From: Geopsychrobacteraceae bacterium
Lineage (GTDB): Bacteria > Desulfobacterota > Desulfuromonadia > Desulfuromonadales > Geopsychrobacteraceae
Length of the DNA: 64,000 nucleotides
Direction: 5' to 3'
Assembly (NCBI GenBank): GCA_963676555.2
Contig: CAXXGL010000013.1
Location: forward strand, 47,860 to 111,859
The translations under genes were made by a program, and so were the position numbers. The notes below the pieces were generated by a model. The model did no database searches and was not told the DNA's origin. It saw only the letters and a list, made by a program, of their open reading frames with translations. Below, piece after piece: positions 12,877 through 48,460 of the stretch; the stretch's first letter is position 1, and the number at the start of each line of letters is the position of its first letter.

Positions 12877-12894
12877 TAAAACTGCCGGGATATC

Positions 12895-35501: not shown

Positions 35502-35512
35502 AGGAGGCAAAC

Positions 35513-35944: not shown

Positions 35945-36002
35945 AAAAATTTCCATATTAAGTTGAATAGTTAGAACATTTTCTGAAAGTAATACATTAA
36001 TC

Positions 36003-37570: not shown

Positions 37571-37969
37571 TCAAGACTGTTTTCCCGAGGTCGGCCAATA
37601 CGACCGGGCCGGCCGGCAGGAGCCACAGGGATGATTCACTTCCCGGAGATCGGCGCCGATCCGCTTAATCGCCTGATTACGGTTTAAACCTTCAGCGGTG
37701 TAGCGATCGAACCGTTCAACGATGTAGCGGTAGTAGTCCTGCTGATTGGCTTCGCACTGTTCATTGAACTTAAGGGCTTCGGCGGCAGCCTGAAACTTGG
37801 CGAGGCGAGTTCGACTGTTGACGGAGGCGACCAGACCGCAGAGGGAATCGAGGATCCGGGCGAAATGAAGAAAGTGTTCAGTCGGCAGCGTGACAGTGAC
37901 TTGAACCTGATCGTCATCGAGAGGGGTAACTTTGAGAGTATCTTGGAGATAATGAAACAGCGAGGTCAT
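37571..37969 (-). CDS. hypothetical protein (orphan ORF between tRNA-Pro and dif)
   Basis: 132-aa ORF with no recognisable family. Its start codon lies 34 nt from the dif-like site. Confidence 0.4.
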   Translation of the reverse strand: MTSLFHYLQDTLKVTPLDDDQVQVTVTLPTEHFLHFARILDSLCGLVASVNSRTRLAKFQAAAEALKFNEQCEANQQDYYRYIVERFDRYTAEGLNRNQAIKRIGADLREVNHPCGSCRPARSYWPTSGKQS

Positions 37970-38002: not shown

Positions 38003-38030
38003 ACGTCGCATAATATATATTATGTCAACT
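38003..38030. other. dif: dif-like XerC/XerD recombination site (left junction of the element)
   Basis: ACGTCGCATAA-TATATA-TTATGTCAACT. Compare E. coli dif GGTGCGCATAA-TGTATA-TTATGTTAAAT: the inner 7 nt of the XerC arm and 9 of 11 nt of the XerD arm match. Positions 38012-38037 are repeated exactly at 48408-48433. Confidence 0.65.
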
Positions 38031-38122
38031 AAAATATTGTACGGCTAAACAGTCAGATAAGCGGCTATACGTTTTTAAAGGATAATCCCTTTTAAACTCA
38101 TCCCGCTTTACTGTCAAGCAAA

Positions 38123-39664
38123 TTAGTAGACTATCCGCAGTTCTCCGGTTGATGTTTTATAAACGTTGCCGCCTTCGGCCCCGCCAGCTATGGCCTCCGC
38201 ATTGTCGGCATAGGTCGGAATTCTCAATTTAAAAACACCCTGCGCCATTTCCCCTTCACCTTCAAACCGGAACCAGTCCCCATATCCACGCAGCACCCGA
38301 TAAGGACTATCAGCGCCGCCCGAAAGATAAATCCCATCCCCGGCGATTCTCACCCGTGGATAAACTTCCCCTTCCGGATTTATTGTCGCATCATAGAGCC
38401 CCTTTGTCGGGTAATAAACGTCAAGCGCCCCCCTATCGTCCAACTCTGAATATATCGCCCCTGTTGTATTGTCCTGCATTGATATTGCAGCCATGCTCGA
38501 CGTTCCCGGCAGCCCAACCGTCAGCGAATCATTCAATGTTTGCCCTTTGAAATTTCCAATATTTGCAGCAAAATCGTTTACCGCGAACTGGTTTTCATAG
38601 CCGCCAATAATAATATTCCTAGAATTACTTATGCTTGTAGACTCATCGTTTAGATCAGAGACAATCGACGGAATAACCCCGTAACCACCCAAGACCAAAT
38701 TCTGACCACTCCCCGCCAAAAACTCAAGGATCGGCCCCGATTCGAAACGACAATTCAGGAAAACATTTTGTGCCCACCTGACAGAAAAAGCCTTTTCCGC
38801 CGCACCTTCCATATTAATCCCAATGAATGTGTTACCGTTGCCGATTTCCGACAGATCGAGCGAAACAGAACCAACCCCGCCCAAGCCGCTATCATTCTTA
38901 ATCAAACCACCGATGAAAGTATTTTGATTTACCCACCCGTGAACCGAATTTGATGTATCAGGCGATGTAAATTTAATGCCGACTTTATTATTGCGGACAT
39001 ACTCAATATTAAACGTGTTGTCCGTGAACCCGGCAGAAACCCCATCATCGTCCGACCCGTAAAGCCTGACCCCGGTATGAAAATTTTCAGCCGATATATT
39101 AAATGTCGAATAGCGCTGATTAACCAGCAGGATACCGACAGAGGTCGAGTCTGTAGAATCCCACTCCAGCGCCGTTTTTTTAACCCGTATCACATGTTGA
39201 CAGATAACCGGCATTCTATCCGGCCCCGCTTCCGTTGCAGTTGTCAGACTACTTTCTACCTTGACCGCAACGCCATTCCCAGAGTAAAGCAACCGCGACC
39301 CATGCCCAAGGCGAAAACTAACACCCTGCGGCACTGTGACCGTGGTCGAGCCAATATAATAATCATGTTCCGGATTACTGGTTACAACCCTGTGACCCGA
39401 AGACAGCGCCGCTGCGATAGCCGCCGAATCATCTGTGATACCATCCCCGACAGCCCCGGCTGAGTCAATAGAATAGGCTTCGGGCAGGTAAGCACTGACA
39501 GTTCCAGAGCGCCCCGGTACGCCGATCATATCAGACCCAAGCCCGGCGTCGTTTGACATAAGTTGGCCGCGATTGACCCCGCCGAACCATGATGCAGAAA
39601 AAGCCGGGCCAGCCAGACCCGGCACGAACGCCAACAGAATAAAAAGTGTTTTAAAGAATCTCAT
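38123..39664 (-). CDS. secreted right-handed beta-helix (pectate-lyase-fold) protein; candidate spike/depolymerase
   Basis: 513 aa. Sec-type signal peptide MRFFKTLFILLAFVPGLAGPAFSA. The GDGITDDSAAIAAAL motif is typical of pectate_lyase_3/tailspike-like beta-helices, and the protein is rich in Gly/Asn/Ser beta-rich repeats. Confidence 0.7.
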   Translation of the reverse strand: MRFFKTLFILLAFVPGLAGPAFSASWFGGVNRGQLMSNDAGLGSDMIGVPGRSGTVSAYLPEAYSIDSAGAVGDGITDDSAAIAAALSSGHRVVTSNPEHDYYIGSTTVTVPQGVSFRLGHGSRLLYSGNGVAVKVESSLTTATEAGPDRMPVICQHVIRVKKTALEWDSTDSTSVGILLVNQRYSTFNISAENFHTGVRLYGSDDDGVSAGFTDNTFNIEYVRNNKVGIKFTSPDTSNSVHGWVNQNTFIGGLIKNDSGLGGVGSVSLDLSEIGNGNTFIGINMEGAAEKAFSVRWAQNVFLNCRFESGPILEFLAGSGQNLVLGGYGVIPSIVSDLNDESTSISNSRNIIIGGYENQFAVNDFAANIGNFKGQTLNDSLTVGLPGTSSMAAISMQDNTTGAIYSELDDRGALDVYYPTKGLYDATINPEGEVYPRVRIAGDGIYLSGGADSPYRVLRGYGDWFRFEGEGEMAQGVFKLRIPTYADNAEAIAGGAEGGNVYKTSTGELRIVY

Positions 39665-39670
39665 ATTTCC

Positions 39671-39835
39671 TCACTCAGAACCGCCGATTTTGAAATGATT
39701 CGGGCACAGTCGCAGTTCATCTTTCAATGTTGTTATTTCGGTTTCGTGCTTCCAAACCTTATGCACGATCCACGCAAATGCCCCGGTCTGCACAGATAGC
39801 AGAGCGGCAATAATAACAAGAAGAAATTCAAGCAT
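39671..39835 (-). CDS. small membrane protein (54 aa, not in ORF track)
   Basis: Hand-translated as MLEFLLVIIAALLSVQTGAFAWIVHKVWKHETEITTLKDELRLCPNHFKIGGSE. Its ATG overlaps the upstream stop (TGATG). It ends 6 nt before the next gene, whose RBS is GAGGAAAT. Confidence 0.45.
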   Translation of the reverse strand: MLEFLLVIIAALLSVQTGAFAWIVHKVWKHETEITTLKDELRLCPNHFKIGGSE

Positions 39836-40050
39836 CAGGCATCCTCATAATCAGGAATATTGAATATCCCCCGGAGCGCCTTCAAAACAGGAAGCATGGC
39901 ATCGTCAACCCTGCTATCGGACTCGGAAATCTTTTCCTCAATGATATCTATCAGTCCGTCAAGCCAGCGCTTTATTTGCTCATCCGGAAATGCCATAAGC
40001 AGAGCGTTGACGATGGAAGGAAGGATCATTTCAATAATTTTTGCTTTCAT
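39835..40050 (-). CDS. hypothetical acidic protein (71 aa)
   Basis: ORF with RBS AAAGGGGAG, preceded by a 100-bp AT-rich gap containing a promoter-like TTTACA-N18-TTATTA on the minus strand. Confidence 0.5.
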   Translation of the reverse strand: MKAKIIEMILPSIVNALLMAFPDEQIKRWLDGLIDIIEEKISESDSRVDDAMLPVLKALRGIFNIPDYEDA

Positions 40051-40151
40051 TGCACTCCCCTTTGTTAGAATAGTTAAATTTTTGTTCGTAAAAAAATGAT
40101 AATAAAAACAATCAGTTATGACCTGTAAAAAAGTTAAGATCCTGGTCGCAA

Positions 40152-40406
40152 CTAATCACCATAAATAGAACCTGTGTGAAACAGGTCATACATGTCAGCT
40201 CCGAATGATTCATCAGAGCCTGAAAGCCCTTTCCAGAGTCCGTCAAAGGCGCGATTTGCAATATTGTTTTCACTGGTCGGATTCAAAGCGCCGTCCGGTT
40301 CCGTGAACTCTGCGGCAACCTTCTTAATATTGCGCTGCTGCCACCAGATCAGACCGGCCCCGGCTGCGACCATGACAAGAACCGCTCTATAATCAATATT
40401 GATCAT
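40152..40406 (-). CDS. small membrane protein (84 aa, N-terminal TM)
   Basis: TM segment AVLVMVAAGAGLIWW. The start overlaps the SLT gene stop by 4 nt. Confidence 0.55.
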   Translation of the reverse strand: MINIDYRAVLVMVAAGAGLIWWQQRNIKKVAAEFTEPDGALNPTSENNIANRAFDGLWKGLSGSDESFGADMYDLFHTGSIYGD

Positions 40407-40879
40407 GTCAACCCCACATCTTTTGAAATATCGGAAACATAAGCGACCGTTTCAGCGGGCCATGACCGGCCCCGCTCAACATTTCCGATTCCGAAGTTAT
40501 ACGCAGCAAGCGCAAGCCGCCATGAGCCGAGACGCCCGAACAACCAACGGAGATAGCGCCCCGTCGCATCAATCGACTGATAAGGATCAAGCGGATCAAT
40601 GCCGTAATCCGCCGCTGTTCCAGGCATGAATTGCATTAATCCGAGCGCACCCGCTTGAGAAACCGCCGCCGGATCGTATCGGCTTTCTTGATAAGCGATA
40701 CGAGAAAGCAAACCGGCAGGGAGACTATAACGCTCTTCGGCCTGTTGAAATGCAGCGTCATACTGTTGCCCCGCTGCTGGCGTTGACCAGGCCGACTGAG
40801 GTTTTAACAGCAGATATAAGGCAAACGCCGCCGGAGCTACCCACTTTACCGCCCACTCTCTGAAGTCCTTTTCCTTCAT
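40403..40879 (-). CDS. lytic transglycosylase (SLT domain)
   Basis: 158 aa with an N-terminal hydrophobic segment. SLT motifs: YQESRYDP (catalytic Glu-Ser), GLMQFMP and AAYNFG. Confidence 0.85.
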   Translation of the reverse strand: MKEKDFREWAVKWVAPAAFALYLLLKPQSAWSTPAAGQQYDAAFQQAEERYSLPAGLLSRIAYQESRYDPAAVSQAGALGLMQFMPGTAADYGIDPLDPYQSIDATGRYLRWLFGRLGSWRLALAAYNFGIGNVERGRSWPAETVAYVSDISKDVGLT

Positions 40880-41448
40880 ACCTTCAGCACCGTTATTGCG
40901 ACATCAATAGCCGCCGCTGCCGGGTTGTAGACATAGATCGCCCCGCCGGTTTTAATGACCGCTTCTGAATAGGGATTCAAGGGCTTGCCCCTTTTGTCCC
41001 CAGTGTTTATGTCACCTATCCGCAGCTTTTCAGCGGATAGGTTTTCTATCAGGACTTCAATAGCGTTTGCATGACCGGCATAGACCAGCGTTGTCCCTGC
41101 TGCCGCGCACGACACATCCGCCGCCGTTTCGACCGTCAAGGATCGTTCAACCGGAGCGGTCAGGTTGGCAATTTCAATATCGTCAATATTGATCTGCCCG
41201 TTTGAGCTGTAAGCCTGGATCGTCTGAGCACTGGCCGTTTCTATCTGAAACGACATGGGCCGCTCATCAAAACCGGCAAAGAAGGTAAAACGCTTGTCCA
41301 CGTTTTCCGCCCTGCCGAGGATTGTGTTTTGAGGCCCTAATATTGTCAGCGTTACCGGATAGTCAGGCTTTTTGAGTACCAGCGACCGAGCGCCTAAAAT
41401 CTTCATGCTCTGACCGGCTGTCAGTGCTTGCGTGTGAGTATTAATCAT
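40876..41448 (-). CDS. beta-rich virion protein candidate (vertex/penton-like)
   Basis: 190 aa from ATG 41448, which overlaps the upstream stop (ATGA). No TM; composition rich in beta-strand formers. Function is inferred from position only. Confidence 0.5.
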   Translation of the reverse strand: MINTHTQALTAGQSMKILGARSLVLKKPDYPVTLTILGPQNTILGRAENVDKRFTFFAGFDERPMSFQIETASAQTIQAYSSNGQINIDDIEIANLTAPVERSLTVETAADVSCAAAGTTLVYAGHANAIEVLIENLSAEKLRIGDINTGDKRGKPLNPYSEAVIKTGGAIYVYNPAAAAIDVAITVLKV

Positions 41449-41840
41449 CCGTTTGCCCTCCAAATCCAGAGCGCGACAACACCGAGAACCCCGGCCCCTA
41501 TTGCAAGTTTCTGATAATCGACCGCGCCATTTGCCGTTTGAAATGCGGTCTGGATCGCGGCACCGGTGCGCTGGATTGCTTCGCTTGCGCTTTCCGCGAG
41601 TTGCTCCCTGTAATCCGCTGTTTCCCGCGTGCGGTTTTCTTCGATCTGTTCAGCAAAGCCGACAACGGTATCAAAGTTTTCTCCGCTTTCCTCGATTGCG
41701 ACCCGCGCAAGATCAAAAGCCCCTGGGTCAACCAGGGTATTATCAGAGCCATAAATAGCCACGGCCCCATTATCAGCACCCTGGGTAACGGTCGTTAGAT
41801 TTGTTGTGCTCTTCGATTTTGAACTTGAAAAAAGGCCCAT
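41445..41840 (-). CDS. C-tail-anchored membrane protein (131 aa)
   Basis: Ser/Thr-rich N-terminus, an acidic middle and a single C-terminal TM (LAIGAGVLGVVALWIW). Confidence 0.55.
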   Translation of the reverse strand: MGLFSSSKSKSTTNLTTVTQGADNGAVAIYGSDNTLVDPGAFDLARVAIEESGENFDTVVGFAEQIEENRTRETADYREQLAESASEAIQRTGAAIQTAFQTANGAVDYQKLAIGAGVLGVVALWIWRANG

Positions 41841-41844
41841 AGCT

Positions 41845-42027
41845 TCACCGCCTTCTCAATAACAGAATGACAACCACAACCCCGGCAAACAGAACGACAT
41901 TGTTCACCGCCTTAACAGGGCTCGTGTCACCATCGAAATATATAGAACCTCCGTGAACCGTTCCGCCATATGCCGAGCTTTCAGCATTAGCGGCAGAACT
42001 CAAAGAAGGCAAAATAGGAACGCCCAT
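41845..42027 (-). CDS. small C-tail-anchored membrane protein (60 aa)
   Basis: C-terminal TM VVLFAGVVVVILLL followed by RRR. Lies 4 nt upstream of the next gene. Confidence 0.5.
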   Translation of the reverse strand: MGVPILPSLSSAANAESSAYGGTVHGGSIYFDGDTSPVKAVNNVVLFAGVVVVILLLRRR

Positions 42028-42040
42028 AACCGACCCCCCC

Positions 42041-42367
42041 CTATTTCAACAGTTTCAACAGAACCGCAGTACCGAGCGCCCCGGCTGAGACATAAAGTGC
42101 CGTCTTGTTCAGTTGCAGCCCCCACAGATTGACCACACCTACCGGGGCCGGTTGACCGGCAGGAACAACGCCAGCAGCCGCAGTATCAGCGCCAGCAGCC
42201 GCCGGAGCCTTTTCGACCGGATCAGTGCCGAATTTATCCTCAGCCCAGAGAGTTCCGACCGTTCGCCCCAGGTCAAAGGCCGTATCGGAAAGTTTATTCA
42301 ACCAGCTTGAAAAGCCGCCGCCGCTTTGATTCGCTTCCGCCGCCGCCAGATTTGCAATATCTCCCAT
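42041..42367 (-). CDS. C-tail-anchored membrane protein (108 aa)
   Basis: Ala/Gly/Pro-rich linker and a C-terminal TM (ALYVSAGALGTAVLLKLL). RBS AGGGAAAAGAA upstream. Confidence 0.55.
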   Translation of the reverse strand: MGDIANLAAAEANQSGGGFSSWLNKLSDTAFDLGRTVGTLWAEDKFGTDPVEKAPAAAGADTAAAGVVPAGQPAPVGVVNLWGLQLNKTALYVSAGALGTAVLLKLLK

Positions 42368-42447
42368 TGTTCTTTTCCCTTCTGATAATAAAAAAGGGGC
42401 CGGGCCTATGCCCTAGCCCCTTTTCAGGTTGTTATTTTTCGTTACTG

Positions 42448-43254
42448 CTACAGTTGCGACAGCCGTGCATAGTATTCTGCAATGGTATTGACAACGCCGG
42501 TTGCTCCGACCGTCAATTCAAACTGCAGGCTTTGAGCATTGCCATTGTTGATCACCCGTTTCATATCACCGTTAACCACGGGGTCATAAACAAAGTGTCC
42601 GTTCTGCGCGGCCATGTCGCGTTCCTCCTGGAGAAACTGAGCGACAGTAACTGGAATTTGATCAAAAATAGCCAAGCCGTTTTTCTTGACGGTCAGTTCA
42701 GTCGGAGAGCCGCCAAAAAAATGAACCCGCTTGATATAGTTGTCAGTGCCAGGGCCATGCGGCAGGACAATCGGAAACTTTCCGGTCGAAGAAAAGTTGT
42801 TACCCTGGGGAATCATGGCCAGAATTCGGGTTTCTTCGGTCAGCGCTTGCGCCTCCGAGATTTCCGCATAACCAACCAGAGTCGGAGCGGTTGCCCCGGC
42901 GATAGTGACTTCAACGGTAAAGCTGGTCACGCCCTGCGCTGTCGGGATCGCCCCGGCATTCATCCCGGCGAGATTCGCAGCAATTTGTGCCGGTTCGGTG
43001 AAGTCGAGCGAGATATAACCCGCATCGTCAGGAATGCCCCGGTATTTGTTGATTGTGTCAAGCTGTGATCCGGTCAGATCGTAAAAGATTTTTCCGTTCA
43101 GCTTGCAGACGATCCGCGAAAGCATGGCCTTTGTCAGAGCAGTTCCTCCGAGCGCCAGAATGATCCGGTGATAGGTCGGCCCGAGTTCACATTCATGGAC
43201 CGCAGTACCAGCGGCAACCACATTCTGAAAAGGAAGCATTTTTTTTGTCAGCAT
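42448..43254 (-). CDS. major capsid protein candidate (PM2 P2-like, jelly-roll)
   Basis: 268 aa, no TM, beta-rich. It is the largest soluble protein of the structural block. Its length and N-terminal pattern (F.NV.AG......L..G.TY..I.L) resemble PM2 P2 as I recall it; not verified by search. Confidence 0.55.
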   Translation of the reverse strand: MLTKKMLPFQNVVAAGTAVHECELGPTYHRIILALGGTALTKAMLSRIVCKLNGKIFYDLTGSQLDTINKYRGIPDDAGYISLDFTEPAQIAANLAGMNAGAIPTAQGVTSFTVEVTIAGATAPTLVGYAEISEAQALTEETRILAMIPQGNNFSSTGKFPIVLPHGPGTDNYIKRVHFFGGSPTELTVKKNGLAIFDQIPVTVAQFLQEERDMAAQNGHFVYDPVVNGDMKRVINNGNAQSLQFELTVGATGVVNTIAEYYARLSQL

Positions 43255-43288
43255 GTCAGTCCCCTTTAATCAACAACGTCAATCAACA

Positions 43289-43450
43289 ATGTCAGCGGCT
43301 TTTTTTGCCATATCGCCAACAGTACCGCCGACAGCGTTACCACCAGCACGAAGCCCCCAGCCAACCAGACCGCCGACCGCGAGAGTCAGCACAGCCGTTG
43401 CCACAAATTTTGTGTCCAGAGTTACCCCGAAAAGTTTCATTTTTCGCCCC
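43289..43450 (-). CDS. small membrane protein (53 aa, not in ORF track)
   Basis: Hand-translated as MKLFGVTLDTKFVATAVLTLAVGGLVGWGLRAGGNAVGGTVGDMAKKAADIVD. RBS AAAGGGG upstream; one TM. Confidence 0.45.
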
Positions 43451-43505
43451 TTTGAAAGTCAGTTTACAAAATGATTATTTAAAACTGCCTAACCAGATAC
43501 AACAA

Positions 43506-43534
43506 AGCCGGAGCATTTACAATATGCCCCGGCT
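43506..43534 (-). terminator. hairpin between early and structural modules
   Basis: Minus strand reads AGCCGGGGCAT-ATTGTAA-ATGCTCCGGCT (one G-U pair), followed by TTGTTGT. The U-tract is weak. Confidence 0.35.
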
Positions 43535-43562
43535 ATTTTCAGCTCTACGTCAATACAGATCG

Positions 43563-43733
43563 TTATTTTTTAAATCTTTCAGCGTCCAGGCGTGACCATA
43601 CGCATTGCCTCGAAACGAAAATCCCGTACCTCAATTCAAGCCGATTTTTTATCTGTGTTGCGGTCAAATTATATTCCTTTTGAGCTTCCAACATTTCCGA
43701 CCAGACGTCATCAGGTATAACCTTATCAGCCAT
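43563..43733 (-). CDS. small HTH-like protein (56 aa, not in ORF track)
   Basis: Hand-translated as MADKVIPDDVWSEMLEAQKEYNLTATQIKNRLELRYGIFVSRQCVWSRLDAERFKK. The segment LTATQIKNRL..GI.VSRQCVWSRL looks like a helix-turn-helix. The ATG lies 4 nt after the upstream stop. Confidence 0.45.
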   Translation of the reverse strand: MADKVIPDDVWSEMLEAQKEYNLTATQIKNRLELRYGIFVSRQCVWSRLDAERFKK

Positions 43734-43736
43734 TGT

Positions 43737-44000
43737 TCACCCCTCCCGAAGCAAGGTTACATTTTCAATTTTGATCTGTTCCGGCAGGATCAAGCCGTCT
43801 GTCAGGTCTGAAAACTTCTGTCTTGCATTGACTGCTGCTGATTCCTGATTTTTCGCGAAAATTCCAATGGTTTTATGCAGCTTCTTAAATCTCATTCTCA
43901 CATCATATAAGTGCATCTGAGTCGTCCCTTCTCCGGCGATAAAGCCGAAAGAAAACCCGCCGAAAAGACCAGATTTCACAGCGGCTGTAATCTCCCTCAA
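43737..44000 (-). CDS. hypothetical protein (87 aa from TTG; 59 aa if ATG 43916)
   Basis: ORF-track ORF with a Gly-rich hydrophobic N-terminal stretch. The start codon is uncertain. Confidence 0.4.
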   Translation of the reverse strand: MREITAAVKSGLFGGFSFGFIAGEGTTQMHLYDVRMRFKKLHKTIGIFAKNQESAAVNARQKFSDLTDGLILPEQIKIENVTLLREG

Positions 44001-44039
44001 TCAGCCAGTAAAAGCCGAACGGTAGTCTTTGCCAGATCA

Positions 44040-44564
44040 TCAAAACGCCCTGTCCTTTGTCACCTTGCCGAATGACGGCACATAGAAAAACTGTCCCTGT
44101 TCAAGCTGCGGAACATCATCAATATATGGCTTCAAATCCGGGAAAGATCGCGCCAGCTCTCTGGCATCCTCCGAACCCTGGCGGAAAATAAAAAGGTTGC
44201 TGCACTGTTCGCGGATCGTCTTGTCAAGCATGGCCCCGCGCTGAGTGATAAAAAATGCTTGATGCCCTAATCCCCGGTGCATGGTTGCAATTTTCCGCAC
44301 AGCCCCGGCATGGGCACCGACCGTTTCCCCTGATTCATCCAGGACAAGCAAACAATCGGTTTCAGCTTCGGCCACTTCCAGAAATTCGGCAGGATCGCCG
44401 GTGATAAAATCAGCCAGAAAGCCGGGGTCAATCTTCGGATCGAGCACCAGGATTTTTTTATATTTCCCCGACCGGCGGAAGTGATCACGAATCAAGCGCT
44501 TAACTATTGCGCTTTTTCCGGTGTCGGTTTTTCCTGTGACCAGGGTATGAACGCCGCTTTTCAT
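44040..44564 (-). CDS. small P-loop ATPase (candidate genome-packaging ATPase, FtsK/HerA- or Zot-like)
   Basis: 174 aa, no TM. Walker A VTGKTDTGKS; Walker B LLVLDESGE. Confidence 0.75.
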   Translation of the reverse strand: MKSGVHTLVTGKTDTGKSAIVKRLIRDHFRRSGKYKKILVLDPKIDPGFLADFITGDPAEFLEVAEAETDCLLVLDESGETVGAHAGAVRKIATMHRGLGHQAFFITQRGAMLDKTIREQCSNLFIFRQGSEDARELARSFPDLKPYIDDVPQLEQGQFFYVPSFGKVTKDRAF

Positions 44565-44706
44565 TTTTTCTTTCCCCTCTTGCTTGCCTTTTTTCGCGTT
44601 CTACCTGTTGGCGTCTTAGTCACCCTTCCATCTGGCTGCAAATACATTCCACATTTTTCACACTTACATTATCCCGGACGATAAACCCACAAATGACGGC
44701 ACTTTT

Positions 44707-45618
44707 TCATTCCTGCGCCCCCTGCTCTTTTTCCTGCTCCGGCTTTTCCGCTGTGCGTTTGCCGGAAAGCCAGCCTTTTAACCGATGCCAGCGAATGCCT
44801 ACCCACTCCCAAAAAGACTGGCGGCGTTCCGGTCTGTCAGGATGAAAAACGATAACGCCGGTTGTGGTCAGCAGACCGCCGAAAAAGATCGCTTCCGGTG
44901 ATAACCTGGGGCCGCCGCCGCGCTTGATCATCATTTCAACCCCGCTTGCTTCAATCAGGTCATAGACTTTGACTTTGAACTGTCCTTGTCCAATCTCGTA
45001 ATTCATGACCTCTTTGACGGCCTTTTCCCCTGATACCTGTGACATAATTGCAGAGTGACCTGCAAGAATCGCTTTTGTGGTCAGGATTGCTTTTTGCTGG
45101 ATTGCGGCGGCTTCCGCTTCCGCGCTGGCCTGTACCTGCTCCGCCGCATCTGCATTATCAACCTTCTGCTGAATATTCGGCGGACGCTTCGGAAGTTTTT
45201 TACGGTCAGAAGCTTTTGCGGATCTCTTCAGCTTCCAAAAGCCCCGCGCTGTTTTCGGCGGAATGCCGGTTTTCGGATCAGCTTTATTTTCACAATAGTC
45301 CGGATGCCAATAACAGCCTGAGCTGTCTTTCAGAAAGCGCCAATCCTGCCCCGCTTCTGCTGCGGTTTTCTGATCCTGTTCAATTGTGCGTTTTTCCTGC
45401 GTAGCTTTGACGAAATGATCCTGTTTTTCCGGTTTTGCGTCTTCCAAACTTCTGGCTATTTCTTCTATGTGATCATCAGCCCCGGCAATTTCTTTTTCTT
45501 CAGGTAAGATAGGATCAGCCGCCGGTGGTTTTTCTTCCGGCGGCTGATTTTCGGAATGTTGCTTTTCGGTCGGTTCTTTTGTTTCAGGCGGGATGTTTTG
45601 ATCTTCTGACTTGTCCAC
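44707..45618 (-). CDS. Pro/Glu/Lys-rich low-complexity protein with C-terminal TM
   Basis: GTG 45618 is preceded by GGAGGT; the ORF-track start is 45669. The N-terminal half looks disordered (PPETKEPTEKQ..PPEEKPP), there is an Ala/Glu/Gln coiled region, and a TM AIFFGGLLTTTGVIVF. Confidence 0.55.
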   Translation of the reverse strand: MDKSEDQNIPPETKEPTEKQHSENQPPEEKPPAADPILPEEKEIAGADDHIEEIARSLEDAKPEKQDHFVKATQEKRTIEQDQKTAAEAGQDWRFLKDSSGCYWHPDYCENKADPKTGIPPKTARGFWKLKRSAKASDRKKLPKRPPNIQQKVDNADAAEQVQASAEAEAAAIQQKAILTTKAILAGHSAIMSQVSGEKAVKEVMNYEIGQGQFKVKVYDLIEASGVEMMIKRGGGPRLSPEAIFFGGLLTTTGVIVFHPDRPERRQSFWEWVGIRWHRLKGWLSGKRTAEKPEQEKEQGAQE

Positions 45619-45688
45619 TTTATGACCTCCGGTTGAAATAGCTACCAAATAGTAACTATCGTTTAGCACTTGACGCCGGTCAGGTCAA

Positions 45689-45719
45689 TATCAATGTGAC
45701 ATATTATGTCACATTGATA
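45689..45719. repeat. 31-bp perfect palindrome
   Basis: TATCAATGTGACATA-T-TATGTCACATTGATA, with 15-bp arms checked base by base. It overlaps the stop codon of the 45709-45915 ORF and lies about 70 nt upstream of the next gene. Confidence 0.95.
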
Positions 45720-45915
45720 AATCAGCCATGATCTGAAAGAGCAATCGGTTTGCTTGATCCAGTTCCATGTTGATGATTGTCACCCGCCCCGCGCCGTCAG
45801 TCGGGAGCATTTTTGAATGGTCGTTTGCATTCCGTAAAACGGACATGACATGGATAAGCTGATCGCGCAAATAGCCTTTAGTGATTTGTTTCTGCTGGGT
45901 TTCGTTGTGTGACAT
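45709..45915 (-). CDS. hypothetical protein (68 aa)
   Basis: ATG 45915 is preceded by AAAGGGA; the ORF track extends to 45942. No recognisable family. Confidence 0.45.
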   Translation of the reverse strand: MSHNETQQKQITKGYLRDQLIHVMSVLRNANDHSKMLPTDGAGRVTIINMELDQANRLLFQIMADLSM

Positions 45916-46119
45916 AAAAAATCCCTTTTCTAATGTTTTCAATAGGTTATCTATGATAAAGCATGTTTATGTTTGCGGAGCGTCAAGGCTGCATAAATCG
46001 GCGGATTCTGCTGCTGTTGCGTTGATTTTCCGCGCCCGCCAAAGATTAAAAACCTTTTCAGATTGAAAAAATTACTGTAAATTTTGCTGAAACTTTCACC
46101 CAAACCGCAGGAGGGAAAA

Positions 46120-46452
46120 TTGAAATATTCTGTATTGTTATTTGTTGCCGTCTTATTTCTTTCTGGATGTGCAAAACCGATTGTCATGCCAAGAGAGGGA
46201 AATGTGTACTCTTCAACCTTCACCGACAAAGACGCACAAACCGCAGTCAAAAAGGCGCTGAAGGGCGCTGAAGAAACCTGCAAAGAACAGGACAAAAGAC
46301 ACATAGTCATTGAAAGCGAACTGAACGGCGTACAGATCGAGCATGATTCCTTTACTAAGGTTGTCGCAGACACCACGCTCAACACTATGGCAGCTATCGG
46401 TCTTGATTTCCGTTCCGACAAAACAGCGAATATTCTTTTCAGGTGCGAATAG
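46120..46452 (+). CDS. lipoprotein (only plus-strand gene in the element)
   Basis: TTG 46120 is preceded by GGAGGGAAAA. Signal peptide with lipobox: MKYSVLLFVAVLFLSG-C. The mature part is about 90 aa. Confidence 0.6.
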   Translation: MKYSVLLFVAVLFLSGCAKPIVMPREGNVYSSTFTDKDAQTAVKKALKGAEETCKEQDKRHIVIESELNGVQIEHDSFTKVVADTTLNTMAAIGLDFRSDKTANILFRCE

Positions 46453-46458
46453 ATCACA

Positions 46459-47643
46459 TCATCCCCCGATCAATGCCAAATCCGGCATTTTCCACCGTTC
46501 AAAGACTCCCGGCGCCAATAGTTCCGGGAGTTCTTTTTTGCTGCAAAAGATCACCCCGGCGCTTTGATATTCAGACATTTTTGACAGGTAAAAAGAGTTT
46601 TTCCCCCAGGTCCGCAAACGGTAAATGAACGCTTGCCATACGTCCCGCCGATCAGTGAAGATCGTCTTGCCCTGGACAAGTTCAAGCGGATTTTTAAGTC
46701 TTTGCTTCTGATTATCCTGACCGGCGATAATTCCCCAAATCCGCCCCGCTTTGATGCCTTCAACCTCGAAAGTTTTCCCCAGGTACTTTCCGAGATATGA
46801 AAAAAGCTTTCCCGTGGCCCCGCCGTATGCCACCAGCGCATTTGTTCCGGCTTTCAGGTGCTTGTCATCACCGGAGCCAACCACGTTAAACCAGGAGCCG
46901 GAAAGCCAGCGGCGGAAGCTGTTAACCCGCTGAACCCCCTTGAACAGAATCAGACAATGAAAATGCGGAATCCAGGCACCCTTAAACCGGCCTGATTTCC
47001 GCTGGACTATTTCCATTTTCCACAGCAGACCGGAAAAGTTTTTCAACCTGCGGAGCCGCTTTCCGAATGTATCCAGGTCGCGCTTGATCAGTTTCCAGGA
47101 AAATTCATATTTTTCCCGCTTCCACCAGGCCGGAAACCAGCGCATTCCCGGCTGTGTGAAGTTGATTGTTTTCTGAGGATCGACCGCCGGGGCATCATCC
47201 GAATAAGTCAGAGTGCAGAACATCGACCGCGCCGCGGGCGATCGCTTGCCGCTGGCGCTGTACTTGTCAAAGTCAAAGCTCATCAGAACATCCATTAAGC
47301 GCTTTCGGCTATTTTTGGAAAAACCGACCACCTCCGACCGCCCCCCGCCGCCGGTCGCTTTGCCGGTTCCCTTCGGCTGTTCTTTTTTAAATGCTATTCC
47401 ACCGGGCAGAACTTCAATACAGGATCGCAAAGGGCGATTTTCTACCCTTTGCGACCATTCCAAGGATTCAATTTCAGGACAGGCCACAATCCCCCCGCCG
47501 CTGCGGTGAAATATGTGACCACCAACAAGCCCCGCCGCGCGGCGGCGTCTAAAATCACGCCAACGGGCGGAACGGCGAATTTTCAGCCAGTCCCGCCGCG
47601 CCCATTCTTCGACCGTTTCCCCTGGCCGGATCGCCGCTGTCAT
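46459..47643 (-). CDS. HUH rolling-circle replication initiator (Rep)
   Basis: 394 aa. Motif I FCTLTY; motif II PHFHCLI (HUH); motif III FSYLGKYLGK (Y..KY). The N-terminus is basic. Confidence 0.8.
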   Translation of the reverse strand: MTAAIRPGETVEEWARRDWLKIRRSARWRDFRRRRAAGLVGGHIFHRSGGGIVACPEIESLEWSQRVENRPLRSCIEVLPGGIAFKKEQPKGTGKATGGGGRSEVVGFSKNSRKRLMDVLMSFDFDKYSASGKRSPAARSMFCTLTYSDDAPAVDPQKTINFTQPGMRWFPAWWKREKYEFSWKLIKRDLDTFGKRLRRLKNFSGLLWKMEIVQRKSGRFKGAWIPHFHCLILFKGVQRVNSFRRWLSGSWFNVVGSGDDKHLKAGTNALVAYGGATGKLFSYLGKYLGKTFEVEGIKAGRIWGIIAGQDNQKQRLKNPLELVQGKTIFTDRRDVWQAFIYRLRTWGKNSFYLSKMSEYQSAGVIFCSKKELPELLAPGVFERWKMPDLALIGG

Positions 47644-47754
47644 GACGCAACCGGCTTAAATTCGATACCCTTCAAACCTTCAAGCCGCCTCATTTTTTTC
47701 TCTCACCCTCTGAGACAATCCCAAGGCATTTCCCATCAACAATCACCCGATATT

Positions 47755-47985
47755 TCATGACCGCCCCCCCAACCCCGGAACATAAACACAATGAACAAGT
47801 TCCAGCTCAGAATCACCCTCATTAATCCTCTTGACTATGAATGAAGAAGATGTACACGAACACTTAACTATTGGGGAAAATCCACCCTTAATAAAAACAG
47901 AGTGAGTAGACATTCTCTGACCACATCTAGGGCATAGAATAATTTCACCGCGATAGCGACAAACCAAGTCTATGAACATAACCAT
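47755..47985 (-). CDS. zinc-ribbon protein (76 aa)
   Basis: CPRCG ... C.C cysteine pairs. Its stop overlaps the next micro-ORF start (ATGA). Confidence 0.5.
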   Translation of the reverse strand: MVMFIDLVCRYRGEIILCPRCGQRMSTHSVFIKGGFSPIVKCSCTSSSFIVKRINEGDSELELVHCVYVPGLGGRS

Positions 47986-47994
47986 GGTTGCCCC

Positions 47995-48255
47995 CTACTG
48001 TATTTCTACTGTCTCAAATCGTTGCAGCCGCCCGTAAACTTCAGCAACCGCGCATTGAAGCCGTCCCCTTGTTCTCATTCTTTTTAGTGGCAATTGGTGG
48101 GTTTTTCTGTTCTGTTCTTCGTTGAATTTTGAAAGGAATGAATCAGATAGTTTAATTATCTGATCTAGTGACATGCGCCGCACGAGATCAACGGCGTGTT
48201 GATAAGACCTATCTTGATTGAACGCTGATAAAAATGCTTTCCTTCTTTCGTTCAT
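47995..48255 (-). CDS. hypothetical basic protein (86 aa), first gene of the element's minus-strand array
   Basis: ORF-track ORF with no TM and no recognisable family. Confidence 0.45.
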   Translation of the reverse strand: MNERRKAFLSAFNQDRSYQHAVDLVRRMSLDQIIKLSDSFLSKFNEEQNRKTHQLPLKRMRTRGRLQCAVAEVYGRLQRFETVEIQ

Positions 48256-48340
48256 GGTGGCTCACTTTCTGGCAAACGCCGGAAAGTATAACCGCCCAAT
48301 CTGACTTATGTCTGAATATTTAAATGTTTAATCATTACGC

Positions 48341-48370
48341 AAAAAAAAGCGGCTCTAATTATAGAGCCGC
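48341..48370 (-). terminator. strong rho-independent terminator just inside the right junction
   Basis: Minus strand reads GCGGCTCT-ATAATT-AGAGCCGC followed by TTTTTTTT. It lies between the dif-like site and the first phage gene, downstream of host qor. Confidence 0.7.
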
Positions 48371-48398
48371 AGATAAACTAGTGTAATGACTAACTTTT

Positions 48399-48426
48399 TC
48401 ACCGTGCAATATATATTATGTCAACT
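48399..48426. other. dif-like site with degenerate XerC arm (right junction)
   Basis: TCACCGTGCAA-TATATA-TTATGTCAACT. The spacer and XerD arm are identical to the left copy, but the XerC arm is poorly conserved. Confidence 0.55.
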
Positions 48427-48460
48427 AAAATATCTGGCTGGATAATATTTCAAGGTGTCA

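What the first reader, a model, noticed from the sequence alone, without database searches (positions are those of the whole stretch)
38003..48433. Integrase-less 10.4-kb prophage bounded by dif-like sites, with a corticovirus (PM2)-like gene set
Two identical 26-bp direct repeats (AATATATATTATGTCAACTAAAATAT at 38012-38037 and 48408-48433) bracket 10.4 kb that is visibly more AT-rich than the flanks. The interval holds about 20 tightly packed, often ATGA-overlapping minus-strand genes and no integrase, recombinase or transposase. Each repeat lies in a 28-bp sequence with dif architecture: 11-bp arm, 6-bp TATATA spacer, 11-bp arm TTATGTCAACT. The left copy has a good XerC-type arm and the right copy a degenerate one, which is the signature of IMEX elements that hijack host XerCD. 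The genes comprise an HUH rolling-circle Rep, a Zn-ribbon protein, a 174-aa P-loop ATPase, a 268-aa beta-rich capsid candidate, a run of small tail-anchored membrane proteins, an SLT lytic transglycosylase and a beta-helix protein. There is no portal, large terminase, tail or tape measure. Genome size, Rep type and module order fit tailless, internal-membrane corticoviruses (PM2-like). To my knowledge these are described mainly from aerobic aquatic proteobacteria, so a dif-borne, integrase-less relative in an anaerobe-type Desulfuromonadales-like chromosome would be unusual. I cannot verify novelty without searches.
Basis: partly seen in the sequence, partly recalled or inferred. Interest (0 to 1): 0.9.

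Follow-up and report, generated by a model that had tools for sequence, protein, structure and literature searches.

The report
PM2-like tailless prophage inserted at dif
This is a 10.4-kb prophage of a tailless, membrane-containing PM2-like phage that has no integrase and sits in the chromosome's dimer-resolution site (dif) of a Desulfuromonadales bacterium; it is a clear example, but this kind of element was described in other bacteria in 2022-2023.

Summary
An exact 26-mer occurs only at 38012-38037 and 48408-48433. Each copy lies in a 28-bp dif-type site: attL is ACGTCGCATAA-TATATA-TTATGTCAACT and attR is TCACCGTGCAA-TATATA-TTATGTCAACT. Together they bracket 10,396 bp of lower-GC DNA. The site lies where GC skew and gene orientation switch, as expected at a replication terminus. 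Related Desulfuromonadales contigs carry a single dif next to the same qor gene, with nothing inserted.

The gene set is PM2-like:
- The 268-aa protein matches Pfam P2_N and P2_C (about 1e-31). Its AlphaFold model superposes on the PM2 P2 crystal structure (TM 0.87).
- The 174-aa ATPase resembles PM2 P9 and HerA.
- The Rep carries the three HUH motifs.
- Gene order is collinear with PM2.
- No recombinase is encoded.

Close relatives exist as about 11-kb circular contigs with a dif-like attP at the matching position. A sister prophage with a different Rep sits at the same dif.

- dif/XerCD-type integration of integrase-less membrane-containing phages has already been proposed for NO16, Jorvik and PhiCjT23.
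- A Desulfuromonadales PM2-like contig is already listed in a published supplementary table.

Verdict: new member of a known kind, modest interest.

The parts
38003..38030 (+). attL, the complete dif site: ACGTCGCATAA (XerC-type arm, chromosomal) - TATATA - TTATGTCAACT (XerD-type arm)
   Evidence: The XerC arm is identical to that of the single dif in the empty site of L028 and to the canonical site of L001.
48399..48426 (+). attR, the hybrid site: TCACCGTGCAA (degenerate, phage-derived XerC-side arm) - TATATA - TTATGTCAACT (chromosomal XerD arm)
   Evidence: The XerC arm matches E. coli dif at only 4 of 11 positions.
38012..38037 (+). Left copy of the exact 26-bp direct repeat
48408..48433 (+). 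Right copy of the exact 26-bp direct repeat
48349..48370 (-). Intrinsic-terminator-like hairpin followed by a T8 run, between attR and the first early gene. The best promoter-like match (48387..48358) overlaps it. In the circular form it would lie just downstream of the late operon and attP.
   Evidence: Similar hairpins sit next to the dif-like sites of L001, L002 and L030.
47995..48255 (-). 86-aa first early gene. It may be a regulator; this rests only on its position next to attP, like Jorvik gp1.
   Evidence: Conserved in L001 and L030 at about 35% identity. No family hit.
47755..47985 (-). 76-aa protein with a CxxC pair, possibly a Zn ribbon
   Evidence: Only weak Pfam hits. A homologue exists in L001.
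46459..47643 (-). 394-aa HUH rolling-circle replication initiator with motifs FxTLTY, PHFHC and YLGKYLGK
   Evidence: 1741 homologues. Motif columns are invariant. All 40 aligned family members hit PF23343 REP_ORF2-G2P, best 9.5e-17. The window protein itself scores 1.7e-4, below the Pfam cut-off.
46084..46452 (+). 122-aa lipoprotein-like ORF (signal sequence ending LSGC), the only gene on the opposite strand. It may be a prophage-expressed accessory gene (inference).
   Evidence: A homologue lies on the opposite strand in L002 as well (35% identity, E 1e-12).
45709..45942 (-). 77-aa protein, unknown function
   Evidence: no hits.
44707..45669 (-). 320-aa conserved protein of the morphogenetic module, function unknown
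   Evidence: 36-52% identical homologues at the same position in L001, L002 and L030. No family hit.
44040..44564 (-). 174-aa P-loop ATPase of FtsK/HerA type, the PM2 P9-like packaging ATPase
   Evidence: BLASTP to PM2 P9: 24% identity over 185 aa, E 5e-5. PDB HerA 4e-4. phrog_2666 2e-14. Weak Pfam Zot, DUF87 and FtsK hits.
43563..44000 (-). Two small genes of 87 aa and 56 aa, unknown function; the 56-aa protein has a weak HTH hit
43506..43534 (-). Terminator-like hairpin separating the Rep/ATPase block from the capsid block
43279..43440 (-). 53-aa single-TM protein immediately upstream of the capsid gene, the position of PM2 P7
42448..43254 (-). 268-aa major capsid protein with a double jelly roll, PM2 P2 family
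41445..42367 (-). Three small virion-membrane-type proteins: 108 aa (PM2 P3 position), 60 aa with a C-terminal TM (P8-like, 30% identity, E 1e-4), and 131 aa (gp-j/P10 position)
40876..41448 (-). 190-aa protein with two beta-sandwich domains, a candidate vertex (penton/spike-base) protein at the PM2 P1 / Jorvik gp14 position
   Evidence: AlphaFold pLDDT 73.6. BFVD hits: an autolykivirus 187-aa protein at 2.4e-7, PR4 spike at 3e-4, PRD1 penton P31 at 1.3e-2. PDB hits are weak. The assignment is inconclusive.
40403..40879 (-). 158-aa lytic transglycosylase (SLT) with an N-terminal signal-like segment
   Evidence: Pfam SLT 2e-25. It has the same position as the experimentally validated Jorvik gp15 Slt.
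39671..40406 (-). Three small proteins of 84, 71 and 54 aa. By a Kyte-Doolittle scan the 54-aa protein has a clear hydrophobic segment and the 71-aa protein a borderline one. They may be holin or membrane proteins (inference).
38123..39664 (-). 513-aa beta-helix (pectate-lyase-like) protein. It has a conserved N-terminal anchor motif and a variable C-terminal part. It is the probable host-recognition or depolymerase protein (inference).
   Evidence: Weak Pfam PF12708 hit and phrog 'tail fiber' 5.6e-7. Only the N-terminal 40-60 aa are conserved in L001, L002 and L030, whose counterparts carry Pect-lyase or Beta_helix hits.

Best explanation
The interval 38003-48426 is an apparently intact temperate prophage of a tailless, internal-membrane, double-jelly-roll phage. 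It belongs with the order Vinavirales and is PM2-like but only distantly related to PM2. Its host is a Desulfuromonadales bacterium.

Proposed free form. The phage genome is a 10,396-bp circle. Its attP has the form degenerate XerC-side arm - TATATA - perfect XerD arm. It lies between the end of the late operon and a terminator/early-promoter region.

Proposed integration. The phage encodes no recombinase. The host XerC/XerD recombinases pair attP with the chromosomal dif and exchange strands in the identical TATATA central region. This leaves a complete dif (attL: chromosomal XerC arm plus phage XerD arm) and a hybrid site (attR). Chromosome dimer resolution is therefore preserved.

Proposed lytic cycle. 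Recombination between attL and attR would release the circle. An HUH Rep then starts rolling-circle replication. A P9-like FtsK/HerA ATPase packages DNA into a P2-type capsid lined by a membrane containing small TM proteins. An SLT transglycosylase and a beta-helix protein serve cell-wall passage and host recognition.

Shown here: the site architecture, the empty site in relatives, terminus-type composition at the site, the capsid fold, the family assignments of ATPase, Rep and SLT, absence of a recombinase gene, and circular relatives with a syntenic attP.

Inferred: XerCD dependence, excision, virion membrane, DNA form, and the roles of the small proteins, the 190-aa protein and the 513-aa protein.
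For: Sites:
- The 26-mer pair is exact and unique in the window.
- attL and attR have 11-6-11 dif architecture.

Terminus context:
- The cumulative GC skew peaks at about 38 kb.
- Mean GC skew is +0.038 to the left and -0.023 to the right (p = 1e-4).
- Coding strand is 76% plus to the left and 100% minus to the right.

Empty site:
- L026 and L027 (MAG Desulfuromonadales GCA_016937895.1) have one dif, GTGTCGCATAA TATATA TTATGTAAACT, between the qor gene and the homologue of the 132-aa gene.
- L028 (uncultured Desulfuromusa) has ACGTCGCATAA TATATA TTATGTAAACT next to qor.

Sister prophage: L001 (capsid protein 82% identical) lies at the same site, between a canonical and a degenerate dif 11.45 kb apart. 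It has a different Rep (Rep_trans), so the Rep is not the integrase.

Free forms of relatives:
- L002 and L003 are circularly permuted 10,983-bp contigs with a 30-nt terminal overlap. They carry a dif-like site at the same intergenic position.
- L030 joins the phage late end to the phage early end across a dif-like site.

Capsid: Pfam P2_N/P2_C about 1e-31; PDB profile hits 9t9v at 2.7e-28 and 2vvf at 1.4e-11; AlphaFold pLDDT 90.2 with top hit 2vvf_A at TM 0.87 and rmsd 2.2 A, followed by STIV, PBCV-1 and PRD1 capsid proteins.

ATPase. Rep motifs and family. SLT.

Gene order is collinear with PM2 and Jorvik.

No recombinase domain was found in any of the 20 ORFs. No XerD-like ORF was found in the window.

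Host is Desulfuromonadales by RecG.

Most betaproteobacterial relatives are also flanked by dif-like pairs 10.4-12.2 kb apart.
Against: - No experiment or read-level evidence shows excision, a circular form or particles for this particular element. The 26-mer scans found no attP or attB of this strain.
- XerC and XerD of the host are not in the window, so their presence is assumed.
- The 18 bp to the right of the central region (XerD arm plus 7 bp) are identical in attL and attR. This requires the phage attP to mimic the host site perfectly, or later homogenisation.
- No repressor or lysogeny regulator could be identified.
- The vertex and receptor-binding assignments are weak.
- The window Rep scores below the Pfam cut-off on its own.
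- The search for recombinases outside the prophage used a single-sequence XerD query with no positive control.
Confidence: 0.8

Rival explanations
1. The element is a cryptic or domesticated PM2-like prophage. It entered through dif but no longer excises or makes particles, and it is simply carried at the terminus.
For: - There is no direct evidence of activity, and no attP or attB of this strain in public contigs.
- No recognisable repressor or regulator was found.
- attR has a poor XerC arm, which in some elements that integrate through XerCD stabilises the insertion (background knowledge).
- L001 shows that decayed remnants do accumulate at this site.
Against: - All 20 ORFs are intact and tightly packed.
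- The whole morphogenetic module is collinear with relatives that occur as circular contigs of about 11 kb.
- The two sites share an identical central region and XerD arm, so they remain recombination-competent in principle.
Confidence: 0.13
2. Integration is carried out by an element-encoded function rather than by host XerCD. Candidates are the HUH Rep acting as a site-specific nuclease/ligase, or an unrecognised recombinase among the hypothetical proteins. The dif resemblance would then only define the target.
For: - HUH enzymes can mediate integration in other systems (background knowledge).
- Several ORFs have no assignable function.
- In marine Vibrio, tailless prophages at dif often carry integrases, and the mechanism was left open (PMC11630473).
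Against: - L001 and L030 use an unrelated Rep (Rep_trans) yet have the same type of junctions, and L001 is at the same dif.
- No recombinase domain was found in any ORF.
- In L030 the hybrid site differs from the phage-phage junction site only in the XerD arm, as expected for a crossover at the central region, which is the hallmark of Xer recombination. In the window the two sites differ only in the XerC arm.
Confidence: 0.05
3. The element is an ssDNA membrane-containing phage of the FLiP/PhiCjT23 (Finnlakeviridae) type rather than a dsDNA corticovirus-like phage.
For: - The Rep belongs to a Pfam family (PF23343, named for the ORF2 and G2P replication proteins) that I associate with ssDNA phages (background knowledge).
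- PhiCjT23-like prophages are also flanked by dif sites (PMC9719478).
- The element encodes an SLT, as I recall FLiP does (background knowledge).
Against: - A P9-like FtsK/HerA packaging ATPase is present. As far as I know such an ATPase is typical of dsDNA members and not reported for FLiP.
- The capsid protein's best structural match is PM2 P2 at TM 0.87. No Finnlakeviridae capsid protein appears among the top 50 hits.
- PM2 itself replicates dsDNA with a rolling-circle Rep (annotation).
- Gene order matches PM2.
Confidence: 0.02

Closest known systems
Pseudoalteromonas phage PM2 (Corticoviridae, Vinavirales)
   Same: - Genome size: 10.4 kb here, 10.08 kb in PM2.
- P2-type double-jelly-roll capsid protein of the same length (268 vs 269 aa; model TM 0.87 to 2vvf).
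- P9-like ATPase and a P8-like membrane protein.
- A rolling-circle Rep.
- The same gene order: Rep, ATPase, small TM protein, capsid protein, membrane proteins, vertex protein.
   Different: - Sequence identity is very low: capsid protein 22%, ATPase 24%.
- The Rep is much shorter (394 vs 634 aa) and belongs to the PF23343 family.
- This element encodes an SLT and a 513-aa beta-helix protein. The PM2 record annotates none, and the PM2 proteome is reported to lack a recognisable endolysin (PMC1950889).
- The ATPase is shorter (174 vs 218 aa).
- PM2 is known only as a lytic phage, whereas this element is integrated.
Vibrio phage NO16 and NO16-like prophages (proposed 'Asemoviridae')
   Same: Non-tailed, PM2-related temperate phages whose integration was proposed, from dif-like sites, to use host XerCD (PMC9966536). 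This is the same lifestyle and the same proposed mechanism.
   Different: - Gammaproteobacterial (Vibrio) hosts.
- NO16 did not appear among capsid tblastn hits at E 1e-3.
- Here there is additional context: an empty site, terminus-type skew and the composition of the hybrid sites.
Rhodobacter phage Jorvik
   Same: - Circular dsDNA membrane-containing phage with no integrase.
- attP and attB resemble dif, and XerCD use was proposed.
- The late-operon order is the same: capsid protein, P3, P8, P10, P1, Slt (PMC10589892).
   Different: - No BLASTP-detectable similarity to the corresponding proteins.
- Jorvik's attB lies inside the cbbII operon, not at a demonstrated terminus dif.
- The replicase type and operon layout differ.
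Elements that integrate by exploiting Xer recombination (IMEX): CTXphi, VGJphi, TLCphi, gonococcal genetic island
   Same: No self-encoded integrase, insertion at the chromosomal dif, one complete and one degenerate dif-like site after integration, and a complete dif regenerated at one end.
   Different: - The classical examples are filamentous ssDNA phages, satellites or genomic islands, not icosahedral membrane-containing phages.
- Which Xer protein catalyses the first exchange here is unknown.
- Here the degenerate arm is the XerC arm, whereas (from background knowledge) TLCphi lacks the XerD arm.
PM2-like prophages of Betaproteobacteria (Krupovic & Bamford 2007; NCBI name 'major capsid protein P2')
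   Same: These are the nearest cellular-genome relatives by capsid protein (38-48% identity). They are of similar size, and most are flanked by dif-like pairs 10.4-12.2 kb apart.
   Different: - Apart from the capsid protein and SLT, their proteins are not detectably similar by BLASTP.
- The hosts belong to a different phylum.
- Some have the opposite attP design, with a degenerate XerD arm.
Autolykiviridae (Vibrio phages 1.249.A, 1.020.O and others)
   Same: They are the best hits among isolated phages for the capsid protein (about 26% identity). The 190-aa vertex-candidate protein has its best structural match in an autolykivirus protein.
   Different: From background knowledge and the Jorvik paper (PMC10589892), autolykiviruses are lytic and differ from corticoviruses, which have circular genomes; I recall their genomes as linear with a protein-primed polymerase. 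This element has an HUH Rep and dif-type integration.

Membership tests
Vinavirales / PM2-like (corticovirus-like) phages | [quoted passage not shown] | tested here: met
   Pfam P2_N 2.1e-31 and P2_C 5.9e-32, both above cut-off. Profile hit to PDB 2vvf at 1.4e-11. AlphaFold model pLDDT 90.2, Foldseek 2vvf_A at E 3.5e-22, TM 0.87.
Vinavirales / PM2-like (corticovirus-like) phages | FtsK/HerA-superfamily packaging ATPase (P9) encoded close to the capsid gene | tested here: met
   The 174-aa Walker A/B protein lies about 800 bp upstream of the capsid gene. BLASTP to PM2 P9 gives E 5e-5, PDB HerA 4e-4, and phrog_2666 2e-14. The evidence is of moderate strength.
Vinavirales / PM2-like (corticovirus-like) phages | Circular dsDNA genome of about 9-12 kb | tested here: inconclusive
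   The unit length between sites is 10,396 bp. The relative L002/L003 is a circularly permuted 10,983-bp contig, and L030 contains a circular or tandem junction. The form and strandedness of this element's own DNA were not observable.
Vinavirales / PM2-like (corticovirus-like) phages | Internal lipid membrane containing small virus-encoded membrane proteins | not testable with these tools
   Only indirect evidence. Single-TM or tail-anchored small proteins flank the capsid gene (53 aa and 60 aa), and the 60-aa protein resembles PM2 P8 (E 1e-4).
Vinavirales / PM2-like (corticovirus-like) phages | Absence of the tailed-phage module (portal, HK97-type capsid protein, terminase, tail) | tested here: met
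   Pfam and PHROG scans of all ORFs gave none of these. The 'terminase' and 'tail fiber' PHROG labels fall on the P9-like ATPase and the beta-helix protein only.
Corticoviridae in the strict sense (genus Corticovirus) | Close relationship to PM2 across the proteome, including the P12 Rep and P1 spike | tested here: not met
   Only the capsid protein (22% identity), the ATPase (24%) and P8 are detectable. P12 is marginal (E 0.14) and P1 gives no hit. I therefore file the element at order level, not in this family.
Elements that integrate by exploiting Xer recombination (IMEX) | No element-encoded integrase or recombinase | tested here: met
   All 20 ORFs were scanned with Pfam at E <= 0.1 and none hit a recombinase. 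phmmer with E. coli XerD found nothing in the window (no positive control).
Elements that integrate by exploiting Xer recombination (IMEX) | Flanked by two dif-like 28-bp sites in direct orientation, one a complete dif | tested here: met
Elements that integrate by exploiting Xer recombination (IMEX) | The target is the chromosomal dif at the replication terminus, and related genomes have a single dif there | tested here: met
   GC skew and coding strand switch at the site. Empty sites occur in L026, L027 and L028. A whole-genome check for uniqueness was not possible.
Elements that integrate by exploiting Xer recombination (IMEX) | Integration and/or excision depend on host XerC and XerD | not testable with these tools
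   This needs genetics or biochemistry. The host xerC and xerD genes are not in the window.
HUH rolling-circle Rep superfamily | Motif 1 (FxTLT), motif 2 (HUH) and motif 3 (catalytic Tyr, here YxxKY) | tested here: met
   T146, H227, H229 and Y283 are invariant, and F142 and Y287 nearly invariant, in a 40-sequence alignment. All 40 members match PF23343, and some match Phage_GPA, RepSA or Helitron_like_N.
Jorvik-like phages | Sequence-detectable homology of the core proteins to Jorvik | tested here: not met
   BLASTP of all window proteins against Jorvik proteins gave no hit between corresponding proteins at E <= 0.05; the two weak hits were between non-corresponding proteins. Only the gene order is shared.
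Finnlakeviridae (FLiP / PhiCjT23) | ssDNA genome, and a FLiP-type capsid protein as nearest structural relative | tested here: not met
   The nearest structure is PM2 P2, and a packaging ATPase is present. The DNA type itself is not testable here.

The most novel reading that the evidence does not exclude
The window element, its metagenomic relatives (about 390 capsid-protein clusters, many on 10-12-kb contigs) and the betaproteobacterial 'P2' prophages may together form an uncharacterised, family-level lineage of Vinavirales. The capsid protein is at most 26% identical to that of any isolated phage.

In this reading, lysogeny in the lineage is generally based on dif/XerCD, and the lineage has evolved two opposite attP designs. 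One keeps a perfect XerD arm with a degenerate XerC arm (this element, Burkholderiaceae, Sulfuricella). The other keeps a perfect XerC arm with a degenerate XerD arm (Oxalobacteraceae). This would imply two different ways of exploiting Xer within one virus group. It would also extend the group to strictly anaerobic Desulfuromonadales.
Probability: 0.35. Interest if true: 0.45.

Novelty: new member of a known kind. Interest (0 to 1): 0.3.

Why it matters
The locus gives an unusually complete in-silico picture of how an icosahedral, membrane-containing phage can become a prophage without an integrase. Within one clade it provides:
- attL and attR in the window;
- an empty attB in sister genomes;
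- attP in circular relatives;
- replication modules that differ between elements at the same site.

This supports the XerCD hypothesis that was proposed, but not proven, for NO16 and Jorvik. It also places such phages in anaerobic, metal- and sulfur-reducing Desulfuromonadales, where very few phages are characterised.

In practical terms, standard prophage finders keyed to integrases and tailed-phage genes will miss elements like this one. Any insertion at dif also bears on chromosome dimer resolution. The finding does not introduce a new principle.

Tried and rejected
- Exact-protein look-ups of the window's capsid protein gave no stored contig, although the protein is in the collection. The source genome could therefore not be named.
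- The host was instead placed by RecG similarity.
- The genome-contig scan did not return the source genome itself.
- The 26-mer scan of viral contigs found nothing. The metagenome scan found only the dif of another bacterium in an unrelated context (Kdo-transferase neighbour). It found no attP or attB of this strain.
- BLASTP against Jorvik proteins found no hit between corresponding proteins.
- A sequence search of the Rep against the PDB, alone or as a profile, found nothing meaningful.
- The fold search for the 190-aa protein against the PDB returned only generic cupin and jelly-roll hits with TM below 0.4. The BFVD search was more suggestive but still weak. I do not claim a penton fold.
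- NCBIfam added nothing beyond SLT.
- PHROG and Pfam scans of the ten small ORFs gave no usable hits.
- The Vibrio prophage I fetched as a positive control for integrase detection turned out to have no integrase. The XerD phmmer scan therefore remains uncontrolled.
- I considered and rejected a tRNA-Pro integration site. The tRNA at 37387-37463 lies 540 bp away, is intact, and is not part of the repeat.
- I considered and rejected a transposon target-site duplication, because there is no transposase and the repeat is a dif.
- I treat the qor gene next to the site here and next to Jorvik's attB as coincidence.

Full report
**Observation**

The exact 26-mer AATATATATTATGTCAACTAAAATAT occurs on the + strand at 38012-38037 and 48408-48433. 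It occurs nowhere else in the window, even with three mismatches allowed, and none is expected by chance.

Read in context, each copy is part of a 28-bp site with an 11-6-11 layout:
- 38003-38030: ACGTCGCATAA TATATA TTATGTCAACT.
- 48399-48426: TCACCGTGCAA TATATA TTATGTCAACT.

I compared them with the E. coli dif sequence GGTGCGCATAA TGTATA TTATGTTAAAT (established knowledge). The left site matches at 21 of 28 positions, with 7 of 11 in the XerC arm and 9 of 11 in the XerD arm. The right site keeps the XerD arm and the spacer but matches only 4 of 11 in the XerC arm.

The 10,396 bp between equivalent points has 49.1% GC, against 54-55% on either side. The interval contains 19 closely packed minus-strand genes and one plus-strand ORF.

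**Is the site a real chromosomal dif?**

Three lines of evidence say yes.

1. The cumulative GC skew of the window peaks at about 38 kb. Mean skew is +0.038 to the left and -0.023 to the right (Mann-Whitney p = 1e-4). Long ORFs are 76% plus-strand on the left and 100% minus-strand on the right. This is the convergence expected at a replication terminus.

2. Related genomes have an unoccupied site.
   - RecG places the host in Desulfuromonadales, at about 70-72% identity to Desulfuromusa and other Desulfuromonadales MAGs and 67% to Malonomonas.
   - In L026 and L027 (GCA_016937895.1) the same recG-qor genes are followed by one dif, GTGTCGCATAA TATATA TTATGTAAACT. Next comes the homologue of the 132-aa gene that flanks the window's left site.
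   - In L028 (uncultured Desulfuromusa, 374-kb contig) a single ACGTCGCATAA TATATA TTATGTAAACT follows qor.

3. The 26-mer also occurs once in three metagenome contigs, within ACGTCTGATAA TATATA TTATGTCAACT AAAATAT, in an unrelated gene context. One of these contigs, L034, shows nucleotide similarity to the window. The extended sequence is therefore probably this clade's dif, not a dispersed repeat.

**What lies between the sites**

- Capsid protein. The 268-aa protein (42448-43254) matches Pfam P2_N (2.1e-31) and P2_C (5.9e-32), the two halves of the PM2 coat protein. A profile of 35 homologues hits PDB 9t9v ('double jelly roll capsid protein', 2.7e-28) and PM2 P2 2vvf/2w0c (1.4e-11). An AlphaFold model (pLDDT 90.2, pTM 0.88) has 2vvf_A as its best Foldseek match (E 3.5e-22, TM 0.87, rmsd 2.2 A). 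The capsid proteins of STIV, PBCV-1, iridovirus and PRD1 follow.
- ATPase. The 174-aa Walker A/B protein aligns with PM2 P9 (24% over 185 residues, E 5e-5) and with HerA in the PDB (4e-4). It gives weak Zot, DUF87 and FtsK Pfam hits.
- Rep. The 394-aa protein has 1741 homologues. The conserved columns are FxTLT, HxH and YxxKY, the three HUH motifs. All 40 aligned members match PF23343, and some also match Phage_GPA, RepSA or Helitron_like_N.
- Lytic transglycosylase. The 158-aa protein is an SLT (2e-25).
- P8-like protein. The 60-aa tail-anchored protein resembles PM2 P8 (E 1e-4).

The gene order is Rep, ATPase, small TM protein, capsid protein, P3-size protein, P8-like protein, a 131-aa protein, a 190-aa protein, and SLT. 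This matches PM2 and the late operon of Jorvik.

The 190-aa protein models as two beta-sandwich domains (pLDDT 73.6). Its best structural neighbours are a 187-aa autolykivirus protein (2.4e-7), the PR4 spike and the PRD1 penton P31. PDB hits are generic. I therefore call it only a vertex-protein candidate.

The terminal 513-aa protein is weakly pectate-lyase-like. It shares only its first 40-60 residues with its counterparts in relatives. That pattern is typical of exchangeable host-recognition proteins, but the role is inferred.

No ORF hits an integrase, a serine recombinase or a transposase. A phmmer scan with E. coli XerD found nothing in the window (no positive control).

**Relatives and the integration model**

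- L001 (capsid protein 82% identical) is a prophage at the same chromosomal site. It lies between a canonical dif (ACGTCGCATAA TGTATA TTATGTAAACT) and a degenerate one (ATATATTATAA TAGATA TTATGTTAACT) 11.45 kb apart. Its morphogenetic module is collinear with the window's, but its Rep is of the unrelated Rep_trans family. The Rep therefore cannot be what determines integration at this site.
- L002 and L003 (capsid protein 59% identical) are circular permutations of one 10,983-bp contig with a 30-nt terminal overlap, so they represent a circular genome. It carries a dif-like site, TTACCATATAG GATATA TTACGTAAACT, in the same intergenic position: after the beta-helix gene and before a hairpin and the early genes.
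- L030 (capsid protein 84% identical) begins with 35 bp of foreign flank plus CTATCCGCTAA TCTATA TTATGTCAACT. It ends with the phage late end plus CTATCCGCTAA TCTATA TTATGTTAACT, followed by the same early-region sequence. One contig thus holds an attR-type junction and a phage-to-phage (circular or tandem) junction. The two junctions differ only in the XerD arm, as expected if crossover occurs at the central region.

These facts fit the standard scheme for elements that exploit Xer recombination. The chromosome carries C1-cr-D1 and the phage carries C2-cr-D2. Integration then gives C1-cr-D2 (attL, a complete dif), the prophage, and C2-cr-D1 (attR). XerCD dependence itself remains an inference.

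**Comparison with what is known**

- PM2-like prophages were shown to be widespread in 2007. Replication, lysis and integration modules were described as exchangeable, and XerC/D was mentioned as a precedent (PMC1950889).
- XerCD/dif-type integration has been explicitly proposed for the non-tailed vibriophage NO16 (PMC9966536).
- The same was proposed for the integrase-less Rhodobacter phage Jorvik, whose attP and attB resemble dif (PMC10589892).
- It was also proposed for the ssDNA membrane phage PhiCjT23, whose prophages are flanked by dif motifs (PMC9719478).
- Tailless prophages at Vibrio dif sites are reported too, though these regularly carry integrases (PMC11630473).
- Table S4 of the Jorvik paper lists 849 P2+P9 loci. 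They are mostly in Alpha-, Beta- and Gammaproteobacteria, but they include one 7.7-kb contig of 'Desulfuromonadales bacterium C00003093' and hits in Verrucomicrobia, Planctomycetes, Firmicutes and Nitrospirae.

The kind of element, the proposed mechanism and the host order are therefore all already on record.

What is new here is limited:
- a full-context example in Desulfuromonadales;
- a lineage whose capsid protein is only 22-26% identical to that of any isolated phage;
- the Rep swap between elements at the same dif.

I file the element under Vinavirales / PM2-like. I do not place it in Corticoviridae in the strict sense, because only three proteins are detectably related to PM2. I also file it as an element that integrates by exploiting Xer recombination, with the XerCD-dependence criterion untested.

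**A wider pattern seen in passing**

Among the 22 genome loci retrieved with the capsid profile, 21 are from Betaproteobacteria and one is from a MAG labelled Saccharibacteria. Most loci with enough flanking DNA show a pair of dif-like sites 10.4-12.2 kb apart around the capsid gene.
- In some, the shared half is the spacer plus XerD arm, as in the window.
- In others (L006, L016, L019, L020, L022; Oxalobacteraceae), the shared half is the XerC arm plus spacer, and the XerD arm of the inner site is degenerate.

I did not find this contrast described in the papers I read. It is an in-silico observation only.

**Verdict**

None of its stated refutation criteria was met. The claimed rarity is not supported, because precedents exist for the mechanism, the virus group and the host order. 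This is a well-documented new member of a known kind. Interest is modest (0.3). Its main value is as a clean comparative case for testing XerCD-dependent lysogeny in membrane-containing phages.

Noticed in passing
L005-L025 (genome loci, mostly Betaproteobacteria); e.g. L020 4348-4375 and 15898-15925; L013 4556 and 15804: P2-capsid prophages in these genomes are mostly flanked by dif-like pairs 10.4-12.2 kb apart, and two opposite designs occur. In one, the inner site has a degenerate XerC arm (Burkholderiaceae, Sulfuricella, and the window). In the other, it has a degenerate XerD arm (Oxalobacteraceae: L006, L016, L019, L020, L022). In the cases I oriented (the window and L020), the intact arm is the one next to the late-operon end.
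   Followed up: partly
L030 1-62 and 11416-11497: An 11.5-kb metagenome contig (capsid protein 84% identical) starts with a chromosome-phage hybrid site and ends with a phage-phage junction across a dif-like site, followed by the same early-region sequence. This indicates a tandem or circular form of a close relative. The two sites differ only at one base of the XerD arm. The same contig carries a PAPS_reduct gene.
   Followed up: partly
L001 1451-4116: A 2.6-kb segment lies between the sister prophage's degenerate dif and qor. It encodes a 106-aa protein and a 708-aa pectate-lyase/Peptidase_S74-like protein. It may be the decayed remnant of an earlier dif insertion, pushed outward by the newer one.
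   Followed up: no
window 46084-46452 (+): This is the only plus-strand ORF inside the prophage. It encodes a 122-aa lipoprotein-like protein with a signal sequence ending LSGC. It overlaps a spurious 168-aa minus-strand ORF and is conserved, again on the opposite strand, in the circular relative L002. It may be a prophage-expressed accessory or exclusion gene.
   Followed up: partly
window 38031-38037 and 48427-48433; L033 3074-3108: The seven bases beyond the XerD arm (AAAATAT) are identical in attL and attR, and also at the dif-like site in the unrelated contigs L033-L035. Empty sites in relatives read AAAATGT or CAAATAC. This clade's dif may therefore be conserved beyond the canonical 28 bp.
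   Followed up: partly
window 37571-37969 (-): A 132-aa protein with no family hit lies directly next to the XerC side of dif. It is conserved in that position in L001 and L026/L027 but not in L028.
   Followed up: no
window 34191-37316: Two paralogous phenylacetate-CoA-ligase-like AMP-binding genes (436 and 437 aa) flank an ACT-domain gene just upstream of tRNA-Pro. This is ordinary chromosomal context.
   Followed up: no
window 12001-13000: A local GC dip to 43.8% surrounds a 144-aa ORF (12541-12975, minus strand) with no Pfam hit. It lies next to a DUF4388 protein and a T2SSE-family ATPase.
   Followed up: no
PMC10589892 (Jorvik) compared with window 48461-49423: Jorvik's attB also lies next to an NAD(P)H:quinone oxidoreductase gene, as does the dif here. 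This is probably coincidence, since Jorvik-like attB locations are reported to vary.
   Followed up: no
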